This document shows, in pieces, positions 12,934 to 58,446 of a DNA stretch of 64,000 bases. The stretch's first letter is position 1. Each line of letters opens with the position of its first letter. The position numbers and the translations under genes are program-made. Below the pieces are notes generated by a model, which worked only from the letters and a program-made list of their open reading frames with translations, searched no databases and had not been told where the DNA came from. This stretch comes from Pelagomonas calceolata. Its lineage: Eukaryota. The stretch spans positions 1,302,001 through 1,366,000 of the forward strand of contig CAKKNE010000003.1 in assembly GCA_918797485.1 (NCBI GenBank), given 5' to 3'.

Positions 12934-13876
12934 TCTACTACTACGCGGCGCGTAGAGCCACCCGAAGATGGAGTAGCGCGACCGGTCTCCCGTCACTTTC
13001 GTGACCTCGTGGAGGCGCGGCACCTGTGTGGAAATCAAATTTCGGGCGCCCCACGCCATCGGCGCGATATTTTCTCCGTAGCTCCGTCTGCTCGATGGCG
13101 TGAAGTTTCCAGGCCATCGACGCGACGTTGTCGCCGATCGCGTCGGCTCGATGGCGTGGAGCGTCACAAAGGTCCACGCAATATTTCTCAGGATAATCTA
13201 ACTCACTGGTTGACTTCCACACAGCTCTCACGCGAAACGCGACGAGCGTGTTGTGGACCGGCGCGAGGCGCCGACCCGTCGCGTGGTCCACGAAGAGCCC
13301 GCCGAGCGAGGCGTCCCAGGTCGGCTCGCCCGTCAGGTAGTACACGAGCGCTATTCGGCGCTCGTGCGGCACGCCGTCTATCTCAACTACGGCGGCGTCG
13401 TCGTGTTTGACGATGTGGTCGCCTCGGCCGTAGCGCCCGAGCTGCAGCCGCGGGACTAGCCGACGCGCCCGCAGCCACTCGCTCGGGGCCACGCTCTCGA
13501 GCACGCTCTGTATTAGCGCCTCGACGTCGGCGTCCGGCGCGTCGACGCCTCCGTCGCCGACGGCGTAGCTGTGCCGCGTCGTATTCGTTTTTTTGCCGTG
13601 GGCCTTTGCGTCTGTCTTGGCCGACGAGCGGCGCCAGGCCTCCTCTGGCGCTTGCCTGACGAGGTCCGCGGCGGCAGCGGCCGCCTCCGGTGGCAGGAGT
13701 CCAGAAATGCGCACGAACCCGCCGGCGAGCGCGCGCGCGGCGATGCATGAGCCGTCTACATCGTCGCGCCGCCGTTTTTTGCCTGCTTTCTTGTGTTTTT
13801 TTGCTTTCCGTTTTACTGGCGGAGGCACCCAGCTCCCGCCGAGAGGCGCGGCCGCGGCAGCTAGCGCGTCATCCAT
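12931..13876 (-). CDS. 2OG-Fe(II) oxygenase (prolyl-hydroxylase-like); exons 13876-13232 and 13023-12931
   Basis: HDD motif, IALVYYL..W...GGLF. Splicing restores LVAFR|VPRLHEVTKV..RYSIFGW (second His and RxS). Confidence 0.85.
13024..13231 (-). mobile_element. Introner intron, subfamily A (208 nt)
   Basis: TIRs CTGTGTGGAAATCAA (13024) and TTGACTTCCACACAG (ends 13224). Donor GTGAGAG, TSD eroded; removal restores the oxygenase frame. Confidence 0.9.
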
Positions 13877-18984: not shown

Positions 18985-20267
18985 ATGGCGTCCTCGAAGA
19001 GCGGAGCCAAGAAGTTCTACCACACAACATCACAACAAGCCTACTACATGCGGCCGAGCGAGGCCAAGGTCGTGAGCTTAGAAGGCGCGAGACCGGTCGA
19101 CGACGCCCAGAAGGTGCGGTTAGGTATTGTTTCCATGACGAAGCGGCCGGCGGACCTGGAACAGTGGCTCGCGTATCACAGAAGAGTAGTGGGCGTCGAG
19201 AAGTTTTTTTTACAAATTGAGGATACTCCCGAATTAGCTGCTCTACTCTTGAGACCGCCCTGGAACGGTTGTGTGGATGCGACCTTCGTCGCCAAAACCC
19301 ATAGAGATTACTTCGTGCAGATGGACCGCCAGGCCGTGAATGTCGCGTGTGCGGTCGAAAGGGCAAAAGCGCACGGGATTGAATGGCTGCTCCATGTGGA
19401 CGACGACGAGATGCTGCACTGCCCGGCCGGTGCTGGTGCTATGCACGCCGCGTTGTCAGCGTTACCTACACAATGCTGCGACGCGCACATCAAGAATTTG
19501 GAAGCGCTCGCGCCGGCGCCTTCATGTACTAAACCTTTTGAGGAGTGCGTCACTTTTGTCGCGTCCACCTCGAAATTCGCGTCGTACACGAACGGCAAGA
19601 GCTTTGGAAGGGTGGGTGCTCCCGGTCTGCGGGCCCACGGCCCGCACCATTTCAGGGGAGATTCATTAAATGGCGCGACGCGCGACCTGCCGCCGTCCAT
19701 CGCGGTAGTGTTACATTATGAGTCCGTGGCCTACGAGCGCTGGACGACGAAGTTCTCGGAATTAGCAGCTAGACACGGCCACGACGCGAAGATCCTCGAG
19801 AAGCTGCCGTTCCCCTTCTACCGGGCATCTTTATCAGCGGTGGGCCGGCTGACGACGGTCTCCGATCGCGACAAGGCCAAGGCCGCCGACGACGCGTTCC
19901 GCGTGTGGTCGCGGTCGAAGCTGGTGGGCGAGTGCGCGCTCGCGCAGAAGGACAAGGTCGTCGTCTGTGTGGAAATCAACCAGTGCGTCGGATGACGCGG
20001 CCGTCCTGGCTCAGTCGAGCGGTGAGGAACCGGCATCGCCACGCCATCGAGCAGGCGTCGCGTCGATGGCGTGGAGGACGACGCGATGACTCAGCACGAA
20101 CGCGCCGTAAAATTTTGATTTCCACACAGGTCGTCGTGACAGCTATACGAGACGCATTAGCTCGACTGAACCTGCCGGAGGCGTCGGAAGCGGACCGCGC
20201 GCCGGCCGCGGCGCCGCCACCAAAACGGGCCAGTCTGGCGGCGAACCCGCCGCTGCCCAAGATCTGA
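18985..20267 (+). CDS. GT-A fold glycosyltransferase (GT2/GT92-like); exons 18985-19956 and 20130-20267
   Basis: LEQWLAYH..GVEKFFL, WLLHVDDDE (DxD), NGKS, LHYES. The frame is restored by removing the introner. Confidence 0.8.
19957..20129 (+). mobile_element. Introner intron, subfamily A (173 nt), perfect TIR and TSD
   Basis: TSD GTCGTCGT at 19957-19964 and 20130-20137; 15-bp TIRs CTGTGTGGAAATCAA and TTGATTTCCACACAG. Confidence 0.95.
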
Positions 20268-20355: not shown

Positions 20356-21574
20356 CTACTTCTTCCCCTTCATTTTGTCCTCGATCGCCTTGATCCGCCG
20401 TTGCACCGCTGACATCCCCTTCGTGGATTCGTCGTCGAGGGCGTTCGCCAGCGCCGTGCTGCGCGTCGAGAGCTGGACGTCCAGCTTTCGCGCGGGAGGC
20501 TTCGCCGCGGCGGGCGGCGGGACCGGGGCCGGCGCCGCAGCTGGCGGCGGAACGGGCGGCGCGCTCGACGCCTTCTTGTGCGCCGCGAGCGCGGTCGCGA
20601 CAGCCGCCACAGCGGCCTCGATGGCCGAATTCAATTCCTCGCACGCGTCGCGCTCCGCGGACTTGCGCGCCACCGAGTTCGCGGTCGCGGCCTGCGCGGC
20701 CAGGCCGTAGGCCGACCGCGCCGCGTCGACGGCGGCCCGCGCCGCGTCGAGGGGCGCGCCCGCGGCGCAGGCCTCGAGGGCCGCCGTCGCGGCATTTTTG
20801 GTTGAGGCCGCCGTGGCGTCGGCCTCGCTATCCCTAGGATCGAAGTTGCCCCGGAGCCTATCTAATTTCCGCATGAAGCGCATCGCCGTCCGGCAGGCCT
20901 TGTCCGCCGCGGCGACCTCGGGCAGCTCTTCGGGGTCGAAGGGTCTATCTACGGTGCCCTCCTCCTTGCCCTGGTTCTTGATCGCGTTGAGCGGCGCGAC
21001 CTGCGCACAAATCAAACAGTGAGTCGGGTGCTCCGTGATATATCTGAATCGAGTGGCGTAAGACCACACCACCACGCCATCGAGCTGGCGTCGCGTCGAT
21101 GGCGTGAAGGTCATGATTCAGCAGTGGCCGAGACGCGCCGCGACAATTTGATTTATATGCACTGCGCGCCACGGCTTTGGTGTTGAGGCGTTCCTTGAAC
21201 GCCTGGAAGTCCTTCTCGATGTTCGAGGGCCGGCCCGCCCTTTTGGGCGAGAAGTTGTGGGCCATGCACGCGTTCTCAAGCTCCTTTTTCAGCGCGGCGA
21301 TGACCGCGGGGTCAACCTTGCTCGGCGCGGCCTCGCGTCCCTCGACAGCCTCGAGCCGCGTCAGCAGCTCCGCGAGGCGCGTCTTGGCGGCTTGCCCGCT
21401 GGTCGTCGGCGGAGTCCACGCATCGATGGCGGCCCGCAGGTCTCCGCCGCCGTCCGCGAGTTTGCCTTCGACGATTGCTAGGCGCTCCAGCAGCGCGATC
21501 AAGCGCGGCTCGCCGGTGGCCGCCACGGCTGCCTTCAGCTCATCGGCCTCGGAGACTTCGGTGAGGGCACTCAT
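20356..21574 (-). CDS. Hypothetical Ala-rich coiled-coil protein; exons 21574-21173 and 21000-20356
   Basis: Two ORFs join in frame (NTKA|VAPLNAIK) across an introner. Confidence 0.7.
21001..21172 (-). mobile_element. Introner intron, subfamily B (172 nt)
   Basis: Ends CTGCGCACAAATCAA and TTGATTTATATGCACTG; TSD GTGGCGCG/GTCGCGCC; internal CACGCCATCGA..TCGATGGCGTG hairpin shared with subfamily A. Confidence 0.88.
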
Positions 21575-28860: not shown

Positions 28861-29823
28861 CTAGGAGAGTCCGTAGAGCGCGTCGAGGTCCTCGTCCTCG
28901 AGCCGCTCGCGGTCCTCGTCTGTCGCGCCGTCGGGCAGAGGCGGCGCCGCGACGACCGCTAAGCCGAACTCCGCGCACCGAATCACGCAGTCGATCTCCC
29001 GCCTCTCCTTGTCCGCGACCGCGTCCGCCGCCATCTCCGCGCGCTCCTCCTCCTTCTTCTTGGCATCGCCTACAACGTCGTCATTTTTCCCACAGGTATT
29101 CGTAGAATGCGGCGCATGCCACCCGCGCACGACCTTGTTCGTGGCCGTCGCGCACCGCAACTCATCCGTCACGTACCGCACCTCGAAGCCCCGCCTCTCT
29201 GCGTACATGCTCTTGGGGTCCGAGAGCCGTTTGAGCGCCTCCTGGATCTGCTGAAGGCTCGGACCGGACTCTCCCCAAGGGCCCTTGTCCTTAGACATTT
29301 TCGTTGGATTGTCGTAGCGGAGCCACTCGCCGTCGCCGTCGCCCTTGACGGACCGGATGTCGACGCTGCCCTCGACGTAGCCCTCCTCTTCCTTCTTCTT
29401 CGGCGGCGCGCCCGCGACGACGAACGCGGCGGCGGACACGCTCGCCAGGTGCTTCGTGAGGGCGCCGCGCACCTTGGCAGCGTTGAGCTTTTTTGGCTGC
29501 TGCTTGGAGGGTAAAGTTGCAAGTATAGCTTTCACGACCGGTATCGCAATGTGATTGTAACCCTTGTTCTCCTTGGCGACTCGCTCCACGAGTTCGGCCG
29601 CGTTCTCTCTTTCTTGTGGCTCCCACCCGCTGGCGTGTTTGTCGGCGTGCTTTCGGAACGCTTTTGCGGCTTCCTTGGCTTGTTCGGTGAGCTCGGCCGT
29701 CGGCGCCTCGGCCGGCGCCGCGCCGCGCGGCTTCTTGGACGCGTCCTGCGCGTTGGCGCCGCCGGCGTTCTCGTCGCCCAGCGGTCTCTTCTGCGGATTC
29801 GCGGCCATAACTACCTCCGCCAT
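28861..29823 (-). CDS. Hypothetical protein
   Basis: 320-aa ORF with coding-like composition; its C-terminus is shared with the next gene. Confidence 0.65.
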   Translation of the reverse strand: MAEVVMAANPQKRPLGDENAGGANAQDASKKPRGAAPAEAPTAELTEQAKEAAKAFRKHADKHASGWEPQERENAAELVERVAKENKGYNHIAIPVVKAILATLPSKQQPKKLNAAKVRGALTKHLASVSAAAFVVAGAPPKKKEEEGYVEGSVDIRSVKGDGDGEWLRYDNPTKMSKDKGPWGESGPSLQQIQEALKRLSDPKSMYAERRGFEVRYVTDELRCATATNKVVRGWHAPHSTNTCGKNDDVVGDAKKKEEERAEMAADAVADKERREIDCVIRCAEFGLAVVAAPPLPDGATDEDRERLEDEDLDALYGLS

Positions 29824-30284: not shown

Positions 30285-30767
30285 CTAGACTCCGTAGAGC
30301 GCGTCGAGGTCCTCGTCCTCGAGCCGCTCGCGGTCCGCTTCGGTCGCGCCCTCGGGCAGAGGTGGCGCCGCGACTACCGGTAGTTCAAGCATCGCGCACT
30401 CAGCCACGTACTCGGCCTCCTCCTTCTCCCTCAATAATCGCGCCTCGCGTTCCGCCTCGCGTATATCTACGGCTGCCGCGGGCGGCGGGGCGAGGTCGCG
30501 CTGGACCCACAGGCCACGCGCGACGACGTCGTCCTCTTCACCCTGGGGCGTCACGAGCTGCATCTCGGCGCGGAGCTGGCGCTGCTTTTGCGGCGTCCGC
30601 TTGCTATCTACGCGCTTCAAGCTGCTGCCGTCCTCCGGGGTGATAACTCGCTTGGGCGCCCTGTCCTTCGCGGTTGGCGACACGGACATGCTGCGGTGCA
30701 GCTGAGCAGCCGCACCATCCACGGCGTCGGGCGTGCCCGCGGGCCGGTTCTGCGTATCGTCCGCCAT
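30285..30767 (-). CDS. Hypothetical protein
   Basis: ORF from Met 30767; C-terminal VVAAPPLPEGATEADRERLEDEDLDALYG is shared with 28861-29823. Confidence 0.6.
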   Translation of the reverse strand: MADDTQNRPAGTPDAVDGAAAQLHRSMSVSPTAKDRAPKRVITPEDGSSLKRVDSKRTPQKQRQLRAEMQLVTPQGEEDDVVARGLWVQRDLAPPPAAAVDIREAEREARLLREKEEAEYVAECAMLELPVVAAPPLPEGATEADRERLEDEDLDALYGV

Positions 30768-30902: not shown

Positions 30903-32483
30903 TTACTCAGGAGACCACATCCTCCGCGGCATGGTAAGATCTGGCAGAGCGACCGCATCCTTCGCTTTCGGCGCTCGAAAGGCGGTGGCCTCGGCGCGTA
31001 GCGACGGCGACCAGTCAGCGCGATTCGCGTCCAACCACGAGCGATCGGTGAACGCGTCACAGGAAAGTTTCGCATCAACCTTTGCTAAACGAGCAAAACC
31101 ATCATCGCCGCGCGCACCAACACGGCGCCGCTTAACTTTGGCATCGCCTGCAAACGAATAGTCCTCGTCCGCGGCGCCGGCCCCGTCGGATTCCAACTCG
31201 TACCTGTGAGGACCAGTGAGTCAGGTTAACGATATAAATTTGATTCTACGTCGAGCTCGTACCAGAGGAATTGCGTATTCGTCTGTTGAGTTACATAAGG
31301 GTTCTTTGGGTCCAGGCCCACGGAAAACGCTGCGAGGCCGCGGGCCGCCGCCGCCCGGTCCTTGGCCAAGTTATCCGTCTTGGCCTGTGCGCAAATCAAC
31401 CAGTGAGTCGGGTGTGCGTCGCGTCAAAAATTTGATTCGTGCACTGCCGCGGACGTCGTCGGCGACGATCCGTGCCGTCGCGTCGTCGACGTAGGTCCTC
31501 AAGCGAACGCAGCCCGTCTCCCACAGGGCAGACGCATCTACGGCCTGACCCTTAGAGGCCAGTTTGGCAGCAAGCGCCAGGTGGAGCTCGGCATCCTTGC
31601 GGCTTAACTCCTGGAGCAACGGGATGTCGTCGGGGTTGTTCGTGCGCGGATTGCTCTTCTGCGCAAATATACGACGGCTCTCCGTAGATCCCGCCTCGTC
31701 TCCGGCACCGAGCAAAGCGAGCGCTCGGTCCGCACCAGCGTTTCGTGCTCTTATAGCGTCTCCAACGCGATCGTGGGCCTTTTCAGCACTTCCGAACGCA
31801 GCGGCCGCTGCCGCATAATCTCCTTCGCGCAGAGCCGCTCGCCCGAGCAGCTCGTAGGTAAACGGGTTCTTCTGCTCAAGGTTCTCCAAGTTGTCGTCCA
31901 GTGCCAGTGCCGCGGCGGCGTCCTCGCGGGCCGCCGACCAGGCGCTGCGCGCGAATTCGAGCCTCGCTCGGAACAGCAGCGCCCGGGGTAGTTCAGCCGG
32001 GTCGGCCGCGGCGGCGCCCGGGCCGCGGAGCAGCCGCACTACCTCCGTCAAGTCCGCCTCTGCTTTGTCCGGGGCGCCCAAGCGATTGCGGGCGTCGGCA
32101 CGCAGCCGATACAAACCAGCTAATTCATCGTCCGGCAGTTTCTCGCTCTTCCAGGTGGTGATGGCCTTGTCGAGCTTTGCGACGGCGTCGGGCTTCTGCT
32201 GAGATGACGACTCCAGCGCGCTCTGCACTATTTGCAGCGCTGCTGGCGACGGATCGATGGCATAAGCTGGCACTGCCGTTGCTGAGAGAATGCCGGCTAG
32301 CAGTGCTGCTTTTGCGATGCATTTTCGATCGGTGCGCGTTGTTGAAGGGTGCTGAGTGCACAGTGCTGGCGCGGCTGCATGTGCCGCATGAATGCATTCA
32401 TGGCTAAGTACTGGTCGTGCTGGCACACGCTGCACCCTGAGCGCTCTGACGCCCAAGCTGAGCAGCAGACAGCGCCTCATCAT
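30903..32483 (-). CDS. TPR-like protein with plastid/lumen-type leader; exons 32483-31455, 31384-31263, 31203-30903
   Basis: Two GT-AG introns join three frames without stops; leader ends AVPAYA; TPR-like helices. Confidence 0.72.
31204..31262 (-). mobile_element. Highly eroded introner-derived intron (59 nt)
   Basis: TSD GTACGAGC/GTACGAGT; remnants GAATCAAATTT and GACTCACTGG..CACAG. Confidence 0.7.
31385..31454 (-). mobile_element. Internally deleted introner intron, subfamily B (70 nt)
   Basis: Ends CTGTGCGCAAATCAA and TTGATTCGTGCACTG; TSD not preserved. Confidence 0.82.
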
Positions 32484-32891: not shown

Positions 32892-33277
32892 ATGGCCCTC
32901 GCGAAGGAGTCCGAGTCCTTCGACGAATATAGCATCGAGAAGCGCGGCAGCAGCGTCCGCCTCGAAAAGCAAATTGGCCAGTTCCAGTGCTCCTTCTGCT
33001 CGGAAGAGACGGACTTCTACGACATACAATTCGAGGACACGCACTGGTCCGTGGTCCCGCGACAAAACATGAGCCCCTCCGGAAGACGCATGACGGCCGA
33101 GGAAGTCGAGGAACTGGAGCGGCTCCAGGCCGCGGTCACTCATCTCAAGGTGAAATTCTGTGCGGAAATTTATGGCGCGCTCACCCCCACGCCATCGACG
33201 CGACACAGGTCAAGTTCGACCTCATCAACAAGGGCCAGGTCTCCAAGTCGAAGAGCACGCGCAACGCGAGCCTATAG
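32892..33277 (+). CDS. Small hypothetical protein; exons 32892-33149 and 33209-33277
   Basis: Frames join at THLK|VKFDLINK across a 59-nt intron. Confidence 0.65.
33150..33208 (+). mobile_element. Eroded introner intron, subfamily A in reverse orientation (59 nt)
   Basis: TSD GTGAAATT/GTCAAGTT. CTGTGCGGAAATTTATGGCGCG and CCACGCCATCGACGCGAC match the reverse complement of the 19965-20129 copy. Confidence 0.8.
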
Positions 33278-37176: not shown

Positions 37177-37835
37177 TTAGCTCGGAGGTCCGGGTAGTTC
37201 AGCGCACCGATGCGGGGGCCGCCGGAGGGAATCCGGCGACGCGACCTCAAAAGACGGGACTCGCGCGGCGAGCGCGTCGAAGGTACTCCGGAGAAGGAAA
37301 TCGATAGCGTCGGGCGGTGCGGCCGCACACTGCCCTCTGGGTGCCCGGCACGCGTGGCCGAAGGTCAGCGCCCCGACGGCGCGCGCGCCGGCGCGCTGGA
37401 GCCGCTCGACGGCCGGCGTGGACGGACGCTCGGGCGTCGCGCCGGTCGCGTTCCGCAGGAAGTCTAGGAGCGAGAAGTGGCGCCGCCGCCAGCGCGACGC
37501 GAATGCCTTCTCGGGGATTCGTAGCACTGCGGACTCGACGTCGACGTGGCCCGCGAAGGGCAGGACCATTTTGTCCGAGATGATTATAGGTATGCAGCCC
37601 GCCGCGAGCGTAGAAAACAAACCTGTGCACAAATCAACCAGTGCGTCGGGTACGGTGACGCGCAGTGTTGGCTGAAACGATCGGTGAGACCACACGGACG
37701 CGCCGCGACAATTTGATTTATGCACTGAAACAAAACGCTTCGTGTGCGCGGAGTCGCCGCGCGGGCAGGGGCAGAAGACCGATGCGCCGTAGAGAGCTCC
37801 AATGTCTAGTTTCGCGTTGAGTCCGCGCCAGTCGT
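37177..37835 (-). pseudogene. Exostosin/GT47 glycosyltransferase C-terminal fragment (5'-truncated)
   Basis: Spliced sequence SVFCPCPRGDSAHTKRLFSTLAAGCIPIIISDKMVLPF; no GT47 N-terminus upstream. Confidence 0.7.
37623..37736 (-). mobile_element. Introner intron, subfamily B (114 nt, in frame, stop-free)
   Basis: Ends CTGTGCACAAATCAA and TTGATTTATGCACTG; TSD AAACAAAC/AAACAAAAC; interrupts the GT47 motif. Confidence 0.88.
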
Positions 37836-53829: not shown

Positions 53830-54000
53830 TGATTATTTCACAGCACAGCGAGTCGACGCTAAGTCGCTAGCCGTGGCAAATACGCGGGTCTACGCGGTGT
53901 TACACGTCGCACTTATTATTGATTTTCACACCAGCGCACAAAATTGTCCGTCCGACAGCTGCAAATTGCAACCTGGAAATTTCAGTGGGAAGGATGGCGC

Positions 54001-54060
54001 CGAGCCAGGTCGGCCGTGTCGTCGCCGAGACTTGTCGGACACTAGTTGATTTCCACACAG
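54001..54060 (+). mobile_element. Orphan half of a subfamily A introner
   Basis: Ends TTGATTTCCACACAG. CGAGCCAGGTCGGCCGTGTCGTCGCCGAGA is the near reverse complement of 57720-57749. No partner TIR found. Confidence 0.75.
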
Positions 54061-54481
54061 GCTCCACCCCGCCGGCGGACTCGCGGCTCCTCGCGCACTA
54101 CATGACGCCGCCGCCGGAACCGGCGTCGGTCAAGCTCCGGCGGAAGGCCAATAACGACGCCGGTGGAGCGTTTCGACGGTGGGCGCGGCGGCGACGGAAA
54201 ATAGCTCCTCTCCCGGACTCCGGGGCTACCTACTGCGGGCAGCGTCCGGGCTATATATGCCGCGGCCACGGCAGCGAGAAGCGGTGTCTCCCGGACGCCT
54301 CGTGCAAGTAAACTGGACAGCTAGCACGGGGGCGGACCCCAAATTTGAGATTCGAGTTCCCAGCCACTTGGCCGGGGGCGATTTTGGCTAAGGGTCCTCG
54401 AACGTGCTATCGGGGTGACACTGCTCGTCGTGGCGCCGCGCGATCCTTACAGATTTAACGATTTTTTACAAGTAGAGGTTT

Positions 54482-55996: not shown

Positions 55997-58446
55997 ATGG
56001 CAATGATCGCCCGCCGCCTCGCCCTAGGAGCAGCGGCAGCCACGTCCTTATTCAACGAGCGCGTGCAAGCGCTCAGCGCCGCTGCCAAATCGAAGGCCGT
56101 GCCGCCCGTGGCCCCTCGCCGACCGAAGGACATCCTCTTCGGCAAGGTCGCCGGCGAGGACCGCGGCCCGAACCCCATGGACCCGCCCATCGTCCGCCAG
56201 GACCCCTACTTTTGGTTAAGGGACGACACGCGCAAGGACAAGGACATCCTCGCGCACCTCGACGCGGAGAACGCCTACTCCCAGGCGCAGACGGCGCATC
56301 TGGAACAGTTCCGCGAGTCGCTCTATCAGGAGATGTTGTCTCACGTCAAAGAAGACGACGATACGGTGCCGTACAAAGATGGGGACTACATGTACTGGTC
56401 GCGGACCGTCAAGGGGCTCTCGTACAGACAGTACCTCCGCAAGCGCGTCGGGACCGAAGATGAAGTAATATACCTAGACGTCAATGAGGTCAGCAAGACC
56501 TTACCCAATCCAAAACAGTGCGTCGTGAACCAGGTCGAGGCGTCGCCGGACGGGAGCAAGATCGCCTACGCCGTCGACGGGACCGGATATGAGACTTACG
56601 ACATCGTCGTCAAGTACTTAGATGGTTCGAAGCCGGACGAAACGATCACGAAGACCATGGGCGGCGTCGCGTGGAAGGATGAAAAGACCTTTTATTACGT
56701 GGTGGAGGACAAGAGCCACCGCCCTTATCAAGTGTGGCGGCACGTTTTGGGCGAAGCCCAAGATCAAGACCAGCTCGTCTATGAGGAGCTCGACGATCTG
56801 TACAACGTTGCGTGTTGGCGATCTTTAGATGGGTCGCTGATCTTCATCGAGGCCGAGTCCAAGGAAACGACGGAATTGAGATTCATCCCACAAAGCGGGA
56901 CGGAGCCGGTCTTAGTGAGAAAGCGCGAGCCGGGCGTGCGCTACGACGCCGCTTCTCATGCACCCTCGTCTTCGCTGATCCTCACGTCGAACATCGGCGG
57001 CCTGCGCAACCGTGCTTTATTTACGGCACCCGTTTCGGCACCGGCGGACTGGACGCCGCTCATGGATTCTGAAGGCGCCGCCGTGCTGCCCCACGACGAG
57101 GGCCGGTCGCTGGACAACCCGCGCGCTTTTAAGGACTTCGTCGTCGTTACTGGGAGGGAAGATGGCTTCACGCAGATCTGGGTCGCGCCGCTTACGGCGT
57201 CCGGCGACCAGGAGTGTTCCGCGCCCGTCGCGGCGCAGGCGCACCGAATGCAGTTCGAGGCCGACGCGTTCACGGCTCGCTTAGGCGCCAACGCGGAGTT
57301 TGACCCCCAGCAACAGCTGCGCGTCACCTATTCCTCGACCGTCGCGCCCGGCTCGACGATGCAGTACGACATCGCCACTAAGGGTTACGAGGTCCTCAAG
57401 GTCGCGCCCGTCCCCAACTACGACGCTACCTTGTATGATACGGAGCGCCTGGAAGTGCCGGCGCGCGACGGCGTGAAGATCCCGGTGACGTTGTTTTGGC
57501 GCAAGGACCAGAAAAAGCCGAAGATGCCCACGCACTTGTATGGGTATGGTTCTTATGGGATTTCCATGGATCCCTCCTTCTCCGCGTCGCGGCTAGCCTT
57601 AGTGGACCGCGGCATCTGCTACGCCATCGCCCATATCAGAGGAGGCGGCGAGATGGGCCACCACCTGTGTGGAAATCAACCAGTCTGTCGGGTGCCCCGA
57701 CAATCTTCACTAAGTCATTTCTCGGCGATGACGCGGCCGACCTGGCTCGGTCGAGCGGCGAGGAACCGGCATCGCCACGCCATCGAGCAGGCGTCGCGTC
57801 GACGTCGTGGAGGACGACGCGATGATTCAGCACGAACGCGACGTAAAATTTTGATTTCCACACAGGTCATCACGAGTGGTACGAAAAACAAGGTAAATAT
57901 CTGGCGAAGAAGAACACGTTCCATGATTTTGTGGACTGTGCGCGATACCTCAAAGAGAAAGGCATCAGTGGCGACATGTCCTGCGAAGGCCGAAGCGCCG
58001 GTGGACTGTTAGTCGGCAACGCGGTCAACCTCGCCCCGGAGGCCTTCAACGCCTGCATCGCCGGCGTCCCTTTCGTGGACTTGATGACGACGATGTGCGA
58101 CCCGTCCATACCACTAACGACGGAGGAGTGGGAGGAGTGGGGCAATCCTAATGAGGCGAAGTATCACGACTACATGCTCTCGTATTCTCCGATTGACAAC
58201 GTGCAGGCGGGCGTGACGTACCCCCAGATGTTGTTGGTGAGTGGCCTAAACGACCCGCGCGTCGCCTACTGGGAGCCGGCGAAGTGGGCTCAAGTATTAA
58301 GGCACGAAATCGCGAACGGCGACGAGACGCTCGTGAAGATGGATATGAGCGCTGGTCACTTTAGTGCGGCGGACCGCTACCGCTACCTGCGCGAGCTGGC
58401 CTTCGACTACGCCTGGCTGCTGGACGTGTTCGGGAAGGCGGAGTAG
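55997..58446 (+). CDS. ptrB: Oligopeptidase B (peptidase S9A); exons 55997-57656 and 57866-58446
   Basis: DPYFWLRD, LYGYGSYG; spliced HIRGGGEMGHHEWYEKQGK..KNTFHDF; catalytic GRSAGG, DPRV and GH. Confidence 0.93.
57657..57865 (+). mobile_element. Introner intron, subfamily A (209 nt, GC-AG)
   Basis: Perfect 15-bp TIRs at 57665 and 57851-57865; TSD GCCACCAC/GTCATCAC; the 3' two-thirds is near-identical to the 19965 copy. Confidence 0.93.

What the first reader, a model, noticed from the sequence alone, without database searches (positions are those of the whole stretch)
19957..20137. Textbook introner: a transposon that is a perfectly spliced intron
Seen: a 165-bp element with perfect 15-bp TIRs flanked by a perfect 8-bp duplication GTCGTCGT. 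The donor GT is the start of the left TSD and the acceptor AG is the end of the right TIR, so splicing 19957-20129 regenerates the pre-insertion coding sequence. An internal 12-bp hairpin (20039-20050 with 20063-20074) is shared by other copies. Established: this mechanism was described for introner elements of the pelagophyte Aureococcus, and 8-bp TSDs are typical of hAT transposases. The intact TSD suggests a young insertion.
Basis: partly seen in the sequence, partly recalled or inferred. Interest (0 to 1): 0.7.

Follow-up and report, generated by a model that had tools for sequence, protein, structure and literature searches.

The report
Algal transposon spliced out as intron
A short mobile-DNA insertion in a gene of the marine alga Pelagomonas is cut out of most messenger RNAs so exactly that the original gene sequence is restored, an ordinary example of the already described 'introner' elements.

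Summary
Real and already known. The 165-bp element has perfect 15-bp TIRs and a perfect 8-bp TSD. It lies in a glycosyltransferase-like gene whose protein matches a named Pelagomonas calceolata record.

Poly(A) reads splice exactly 19957-20129: 128, 107, 104 and 24 sense-strand junction reads in four runs of one sample. Two metagenome contigs at 98-99% amino-acid identity show the empty site with one TSD copy, so splicing restores the pre-insertion sequence.

- Splicing is exact but incomplete: about 15-21% of transcripts appear to keep the element.
- The copy has a 36-37-bp internal deletion against its ~202-bp family, and the insertion is shared with other haplotypes, so it is recent but not brand new.
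- hAT parentage is unproven: the ends fail the hAT YARNG motif and no hAT transposase was found.

P. calceolata introners (956 putative, ~210 nt) and the TSD-donor/TIR-acceptor mechanism are published. One lead: three window copies have a YARNG-type end and a single acceptor end, possibly a half-way step from transposon to two-way introner.

The parts
18985..19956 (+). Exon 1 of host gene (324 codons; glycosyltransferase family 2-like)
   Evidence: ORF from ATG 18985; PF13704, E 4e-7, above the curated cut-off; sense-strand poly(A) depth about 90-250
19957..19964 (+). Left (intronic) 8-bp TSD; its first GT is the 5' splice site
   Evidence: joint skips 173, GT..AG
19965..19979 (+). Left 15-bp TIR
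19965..20129 (+). 165-bp TIR element (MITE-like), a deletion derivative of a ~201-202-bp family
   Evidence: (tables 5, 5c)
19991..19992 (+). Breakpoint of a 36-37-bp internal deletion relative to the family; creates the in-frame TGA at 19993-19995 in unspliced RNA
   Evidence: 1894 (X21) and 1773 (X22) reads from other copies carry extra letters here; alignment with 57665-57865
20039..20074 (.). Internal 12-bp hairpin (arms 20039-20050, 20063-20074)
20115..20129 (+). Right 15-bp TIR; its last AG is the 3' splice site
20130..20137 (+). Right (exonic) 8-bp TSD, kept in mRNA as the start of exon 2
   Evidence: a single copy at empty sites
20130..20267 (+). Exon 2 coding part (45 codons plus stop)
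21001..21172 (-). Related copy (164 bp plus 8-bp TSD), asymmetric-end subfamily, spliced with its interior in the opposite orientation
   Evidence: joint skips 172, 43 and 20 reads; absent from L002/L003
57657..57865 (+). Full-length sibling (201 bp plus 8-bp TSD, GC donor) in a prolyl oligopeptidase gene; splicing inferred
   Evidence: removal gives a 746-aa ORF with the GxSxGG motif; not tested with RNA
13024..13231 (-). Older sibling (201 bp; GT donor 7 nt from the TIR) in a 2OG-Fe(II) oxygenase gene; splicing inferred
   Evidence: only the 208-nt removal gives a plausible C-terminal His/Arg motif; not tested with RNA
31385..31454 (-). Short asymmetric-end copy (62 bp plus 8); splicing inferred
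   Evidence: frame open after removal; not tested with RNA
33150..33208 (+). Degenerate copy (51 bp plus 8-bp TSD, 6/8 match); splicing inferred
   Evidence: not tested with RNA
37623..37736 (-). Asymmetric-end copy (105 bp; GT 9 nt from the end); splicing inferred
   Evidence: not tested with RNA

Best explanation
The element is a short non-coding insertion with inverted ends and an 8-bp target duplication, likely placed by a cut-and-paste transposase, that is spliced out of the mRNA from the GT of its left duplication to the AG at the end of its right inverted repeat, restoring the empty-site coding sequence exactly. Shown: the anatomy, the junction in RNA, the empty site in close relatives, and a multi-copy family. 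Inferred: mobilisation in trans by an unidentified DDE transposase making 8-bp staggered cuts; removal by the ordinary spliceosome; survival in exons only where the target begins with GT or GC, because those insertions are nearly silent. The cost is incomplete splicing. About 15-21% of poly(A) transcripts appear to keep the element and would encode a 336-aa protein lacking the C-terminal tail. A predicted 15-bp TIR stem that buries the 3' splice site is a possible cause (untested).
For: Junction 19957-20129: X21 128 reads (43 starts), X22 107 (42), X23 104 (46), X24 24 (15), all on the sense strand; also one contig each in X3, X7 and X15. In the narrow 99%-likeness lay the joint table was shown in full, and no 170- or 167-nt joint from the two other in-frame GTs of the TSD was listed (threshold 3 reads at 2 starts). 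Empty site in 6 of 6 loci that span the position (L001-L006, 71-99% aa); L001 and L006 keep one perfect TSD copy. L006 carries unspliced family elements elsewhere and L003 spans several genes over 12.5 kb, so both look like DNA. Seven two-ended copies and one solo end lie in 64 kb; 5 of the 7 have a GT or GC exactly 8 nt before the element, the other two at 7 and 9 nt. The dominant family variant is about 202 bp, giving a 210-nt intron, which matches the published length peak. Fold z -4.2, largely because of the TIR stem.
Against: No transposase or autonomous parent was found: no genome was held, the TIR pattern gave 0 hits in viral contigs and 1 contig-end hit in prokaryote genomes, and the held part of the species' annotation has no hAT-type Pfam or InterPro entry. 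Cut-and-paste mobility is therefore inferred from anatomy. The four raw runs are one sample, so they are not independent. X3 and X7 are 'RNA?' by guess. L001 and L006 are 86-93% identical in DNA, so segregation within one species is not shown. The empty sites could in principle reflect intron loss, though outgroups are also empty. The retention figure could include pre-mRNA or identical siblings, and the X7 contig across the exon/element border has under 31 letters on each side.
Confidence: 0.95

Rival explanations
1. An old ordinary intron, lost in relatives, that later acquired repeat-like ends.
For: Precise intron loss gives the same empty-site sequence as absence of insertion.
Against: Empty in 6 of 6 spanning loci, including 71% and 83% outgroups. 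The intron's first 8 nt duplicate the next exon's first 8 nt, and the 165 bp between TSDs is a multi-copy family with perfect TIRs.
Confidence: 0.01
2. The family spreads through an RNA route (reverse splicing or circularised introns), not DNA transposition.
For: No transposase was found. A small joint running from the element's end back to its start appears in 8 and 6 reads and one metatranscriptome contig.
Against: Each copy has its own site-specific 8-bp duplication, and TIR boundaries exclude the intronic TSD. Copies are spliced in both interior orientations. Reverse splicing would copy the whole intron with a fixed 5' end, in one orientation. The back-joint does not match this locus (6, not 10, shared letters; absent at 99% likeness) and fits a tandem pair elsewhere equally well.
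Confidence: 0.03
3. The true splice uses the second GT of the TSD (19960), adding one Val, as in the public gene model CAH0370851.1 (370 aa); the element is then not sequence-neutral.
For: The named record has exactly one extra Val; the TSD holds three in-frame GTs.
Against: All listed junction reads skip 173 nt; no 170-nt joint was listed. In one search, 84 weaker joints were hidden, so alone does not exclude it. Of 15 listed cluster members, 11 have three Val, 1 (the gene model) has four, and 3 read into the element.
Confidence: 0.01

Closest known systems
Pelagomonas calceolata putative introner elements (Guerin et al., PMC9481584 / bioRxiv 10.1101/2021.10.25.465678; passages and supplement searches seen)
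   Same: Same species by protein identity; intron length peak about 210 nt; GT or GC donors, AG acceptor, conserved TIRs; 956 putative copies.
   Different: This copy is 173 nt because of an internal deletion. 'TSD' had 0 occurrences in the main text and the searched supplements, so the TSD-donor geometry is not stated in what I saw. I could not see Figure S3 or the IE table (file cut), so I did not check whether this copy is among the 956.
Aureococcus anophagefferens introner elements (Huff, Zilberman, Roy 2016; paper not held, known here from passages of Roy et al. bioRxiv 10.1101/2020.10.14.339549 and Gozashti et al. PMC9860276)
   Same: One splice site carried by the element and the other recruited from the TSD; the Roy passage-nt-TSD, either-orientation classes similar to the A. 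anophagefferens pattern; MITE-like with TSD and TIR.
   Different: Different genus. Sequence homology to the Aureococcus families was not tested, and nucleosome-linker bias is not testable here.
hAT-superfamily MITEs (PMC3517528, PMC3014272; passages seen)
   Same: 8-bp TSD, short TIR (5-27 bp), non-coding, high copy.
   Different: The focal ends start CTGTG, not YARNG; no hAT transposase was found; only one end of the three asymmetric copies starts CAGTG.

Membership tests
Introner, Aureococcus/Pelagomonas type | Removed from mRNA as an intron | tested here: met
   173-nt GT..AG joint in four raw runs of one sample and in three contig sets
Introner, Aureococcus/Pelagomonas type | Multi-copy family of similar introns in unrelated genes | tested here: met
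   seven two-ended copies in 64 kb; thousands of reads from other loci pile on the element
Introner, Aureococcus/Pelagomonas type | 3' splice site carried by the TIR, 5' splice site taken from the 8-bp TSD | tested here: met
Introner, Aureococcus/Pelagomonas type | Splicing restores the pre-insertion sequence (empty site with one TSD copy) | tested here: met
   L001 and L006
Introner, Aureococcus/Pelagomonas type | Intron creation in either orientation | tested here: met
   Focal copy and copy 21001-21164 are both spliced in RNA with opposite interior orientation. These are different subfamilies; reversal within the symmetric subfamily is only inferred (33158 copy).
Introner, Aureococcus/Pelagomonas type | Insertion bias to nucleosome linkers | not testable with these tools
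   needs the genome-wide copy set and nucleosome maps
hAT superfamily | 8-bp TSD | tested here: met
   not diagnostic, since Merlin also makes 8-9-bp TSDs
hAT superfamily | Short TIRs (5-27 bp) | tested here: met
   15 bp; range from PMC3517528
hAT superfamily | Terminal motif YARNG | tested here: not met
   Focal ends are CTGTG (T at position 2); motif from PMC3014272. Met at one end only of three other copies.
hAT superfamily | hAT transposase or autonomous element sharing the TIRs | tested here: inconclusive
   No genome held. In the held part (14,639 rows; file cut; 16,667 genes in all) of the published annotation, PF05699, IPR008906, PF04937, PF02892 and PF14291 have 0 hits; the only gene labelled transposase is Tc1-like. 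Repeats were masked before ab initio prediction, so a parent could be missed.
Merlin superfamily | Terminal GG and TIRs of 24-462 bp | tested here: not met
   Ends CT..AG, TIR 15 bp; definition from PMC8101967
P-element superfamily | THAP-domain transposase with 8-bp TSD (definition recalled, from no call) | tested here: inconclusive
   PF05485 has 0 hits in the held part of the annotation; terminal motifs not compared

The most novel reading that the evidence does not exclude
The window preserves the step by which a hAT-type MITE became an introner. A YARNG end cannot finish in AG, so it offers no 3' splice site. One A-to-T change at TIR position 2 creates the acceptor. Three copies (21001, 31385, 37623) have one CAGTG end and one CTG end and can splice one way only, while the focal subfamily has both ends converted and can splice either way. 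This would name the parent superfamily and a one-base route to intron creation. The direction of change is not established, and no parent transposase is in hand.
Probability: 0.2. Interest if true: 0.6.

Novelty: already known. Interest (0 to 1): 0.3.

Why it matters
As found, it is a clean teaching example of intron gain by a transposon, with junction reads and empty sites in hand, in a species where such elements are already reported. Smaller additions: the public gene model appears to use the wrong donor (one extra Val); the apparent 15-21% retention puts a number on the cost of a 'silent' insertion; and protein records suggest a second, independent insertion 99 nt upstream in other haplotypes, which points to ongoing intron gain in wild Pelagomonas. 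I found no paper naming the enzyme that moves these elements (most subscription papers and Huff 2016 are not held). The asymmetric-end copies offer a testable lead on that open point.

Tried and rejected
- Whole-genome search for copies or an autonomous element: impossible, no genome held.
- TIR pattern: 0 hits in viral contigs; 1 hit at the end of a 2.7-kb contig in a prokaryote MAG, probably algal contamination, uninformative.
- Huff et al. 2016: not held under PMC id, DOI or PubMed id.
- Earlier scan notes: none by place or by sequence.
- Paper searches with no result: hAT TIR position wording; Pelagomonas + transposable element + hAT + transposase.
- 10-bp TSD reading: rejected, because it would cut the terminal CT/AG off a perfect TIR and the other copies use 8.
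- Enumerating alternative GT/GC-AG pairs by ORF length: many pairs give open frames, so it does not discriminate; RNA decided.
- De novo TIR+TSD scan: found only the focal copy and GC-rich noise, because the siblings' TSDs have decayed.
- 14 of the 20 loci (L007-L020) were not examined: they match at most residues 1-85 of the 124-aa query and do not reach the site.
- RNA contigs from metatranscriptomes cannot tell a spliced from an empty allele, so X15 was not counted as an empty site.
- TSD mismatch as a clock: doubtful. In three siblings 5 of 6 TSD differences fall at third codon positions of the exon frame (read by eye), which suggests exon-side synonymous change or recombination; the sample is very small.

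Full report
1. Observation. The sequence is as described. The inverted arms 19965-19979 and 20115-20129 are 15/15 complementary, GTCGTCGT flanks both sides, and the 12-bp internal hairpin is at 20039-20050 / 20063-20074. The direct repeat is 10 bp because the exon ends in AG like the TIR; the TIR boundary and the sibling copies fix the TSD at 8 bp. In 100 order-5 Markov windows, 99 perfect 15-bp inverted pairs arose and 0 of them had an adjacent 8-bp duplication.

2. Host. The window is a gene-dense eukaryotic sequence of 56-70% GC. The element interrupts an ORF from ATG 18985 with a glycosyltransferase-2 match (PF13704). Removing 19957-20129 gives 369 aa; leaving it in stops the ORF at 336 aa; removing only TIR to TIR shifts the frame. 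A named record, CAH0370851.1 of Pelagomonas calceolata, is identical to the two exons except for one extra Val. That fixes the species and implies the public model uses the GT at 19960.

3. Splicing. Raw poly(A) reads show one joint, skipping 173 nt GT..AG, on the sense strand only: X21 128 reads from 43 starts, X22 107 from 42, X23 104 from 46, X24 24 from 15. These four runs are one sample. Contigs of X3 and X7 (other samples, RNA by guess) and of the metatranscriptome X15 show the same joint; X18 showed no contig with it. In one search the joint table was complete and listed no 170- or 167-nt joint, so the extra Val of the public model is unsupported at a threshold of 3 reads. One search hid 84 weaker joints.

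4. Retention. At 99% likeness, depth just past the copy's deletion breakpoint (19995-20009) was 27.8 sense and 1 antisense in X23, and 6.2 and 1 in X24. In X23, 25 of 27 sense reads at 20090 lacked the T that about 97% of family reads carry there. This gives about 15-21% retention depending on the denominator. Pre-mRNA or identical siblings could inflate it. A retained transcript would encode 336 aa with the glycosyltransferase match intact. As I found no later intron in this gene, junction-dependent decay may not act (inference from general knowledge). The predicted fold pairs the two TIRs and buries the acceptor AG, leaving the donor unpaired; a link to retention is a hypothesis. Gozashti et al. 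report introners as generally spliced better than other introns (passage); I had no control intron to compare.

5. Empty and filled sites. A metagenome scan with the last 124 codons of exon 1 gave 388 pattern matches and 20 confirmed loci; 6 span the site and 6 of 6 are empty. L001 (98% aa) and L006 (99% aa) have one perfect copy of the 8-mer and no element. Their DNA identity to the window is 86-93%, so they are close relatives, not proven conspecifics. L006 carries unspliced family elements further on, and L003 is a 12.5-kb multi-gene contig that also lacks copy 21001, so these look like DNA. Among 15 listed members of the protein's 76-member cluster, 11 run straight through the site (transcript or empty allele, not separable), 1 is the gene model and 3 read into the element: P0055 with the same deletion stop, P0046 with a Val-to-Ile change in the intronic TSD and an interior unlike the deleted copy, and P0057. 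Chimeric assembly inside a repeat is possible for the interiors. The insertion is therefore recent on the scale of the genus but shared among haplotypes.

6. Family. Seven two-ended copies and one solo end lie in the 64 kb. The nearest sibling (57665-57865, 201 bp, 94% over 145 bp) and about 1,800-1,900 reads per run show that the focal copy lost 36-37 bp at 19991. The commonest variant is about 202 bp, giving a 210-nt intron. Five of the 7 copies have GT or GC exactly 8 nt before the element; TSD matches are 8, 7, 6, 6, 6, 2 and 2 of 8. Copy 21001-21164 is spliced in RNA (43 and 20 reads) with its interior reversed. For the other five, splicing is inferred from restored frames only. Three copies form an asymmetric subfamily starting CAGTG and ending CAG in intron orientation; their other strand ends in TG and offers no terminal acceptor.

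7. Mechanism. Shown: TIR and TSD anatomy, exact splicing, empty sites, repetition. Inferred: a non-autonomous DNA element moved by a transposase that cuts 8 bp apart. When the target begins GT or GC, that dinucleotide in the upstream duplicate becomes the donor and the TIR's AG the acceptor, so element plus one duplicate leave and the other duplicate stays. The enzyme is unknown. No genome was available. In the 14,639 held rows of the published annotation (file cut) there is no hAT-type or THAP accession and a single Tc1-like transposase.

8. Comparison. Guerin et al. report 956 putative introner elements in P. calceolata with a ~210-bp peak, GT/GC donors, AG acceptors and TIRs (passages and Supplementary Note 3; Figure S3, the IE table and one scanned file were not visible and may bear on how much of this geometry is in print). 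Roy et al. describe the Aureococcus pattern of one carried and one TSD-derived splice site, and liken 8-nt-TSD, either-orientation classes to it (passages). Gozashti et al. 2022 and 2025 were seen as passages. Huff et al. 2016 was not seen. The element meets every testable introner feature. It meets the hAT TSD and TIR-length features but not the YARNG terminus (passages of PMC3517528 and PMC3014272), and it fails Merlin's GG ends (passages of PMC8101967). It works like an 8-bp-TSD MITE; it should not be filed as hAT. PMC10629977 was checked (passages) and is not relevant.

9. Verdict. Real, correctly read by the first stage, and already known as a class and in this species. Interest 0.3. The boldest reading left open is that the asymmetric copies are a half-converted hAT-type ancestor (probability about 0.2).

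Noticed in passing
window 19858-19865 (site empty in the window); proteins P0002, P0007, P0062, P0063, P0072, P0073: Six protein records read into a different insertion 99 nt upstream of the focal donor. P0062 and P0072 carry it in frame (33 and 32 aa, ending in Gln then repeating Val) and run through the focal site without an insertion. Likely a second, independent introner in the same gene in other haplotypes; DNA not seen.
   Followed up: partly
window 19957-19962; record CAH0370851.1 (P0050): The public gene model has one extra Val, implying the donor at 19960; the RNA reads support 19957.
   Followed up: yes
window 21001-21164, 31385-31446, 37623-37727: Asymmetric-end subfamily: one end CAGTG (fits hAT YARNG), the other supplies the acceptor; all three are in the reversed interior orientation.
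   Followed up: partly
window 20127 back to 19955 (reads from another locus): Reads joining an element's end to an element's start (8 and 6 reads, one X18 contig at depth 33). They differ from this locus in the spacer: a tandem pair elsewhere or a circular intron.
   Followed up: no
window 10887, 30861, 32512, 36119, 42113, 53802, 55793: A 29-bp repeated motif (core CTAGTGTCTTAC, then GCTAGC) in seven copies, mostly between or at the starts of ORFs; promoter-like element or small repeat, unexplained.
   Followed up: no
window 20356-21574 versus L003:3809-4801: The gene downstream of the host is inverted in the relative L003 while its neighbours keep their orientation; L001 and L006 diverge from the window just after the host's 3' end.
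   Followed up: no
window 53919-54060: Solo TIR end at 54046-54060 with partial interior and a second degraded end in the same direction at 53919; no partner end found within about 330 bp.
   Followed up: partly
window 13225-13231, 54061-54067; L006:1531-1537: Three copies have a GT 7 nt rather than 8 nt before the TIR; for 13024-13224 the 208-nt removal restores the oxygenase C-terminus, so the intronic TSD seems to have lost a base.
   Followed up: partly
window 21001, 33158, 57665 copies: 5 of 6 differences between paired TSDs fall at third codon positions of the exon frame, so TSD decay may not be a clean age clock.
   Followed up: no
window 28866-29008 and 30287-30429: 143-bp direct repeat at 82% identity in two neighbouring minus-strand ORFs, probably a tandem gene duplication.
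   Followed up: no
L021:2655-2673: Family TIR at the end of a contig filed in a proteobacterial MAG; probably algal contamination of the bin.
   Followed up: no
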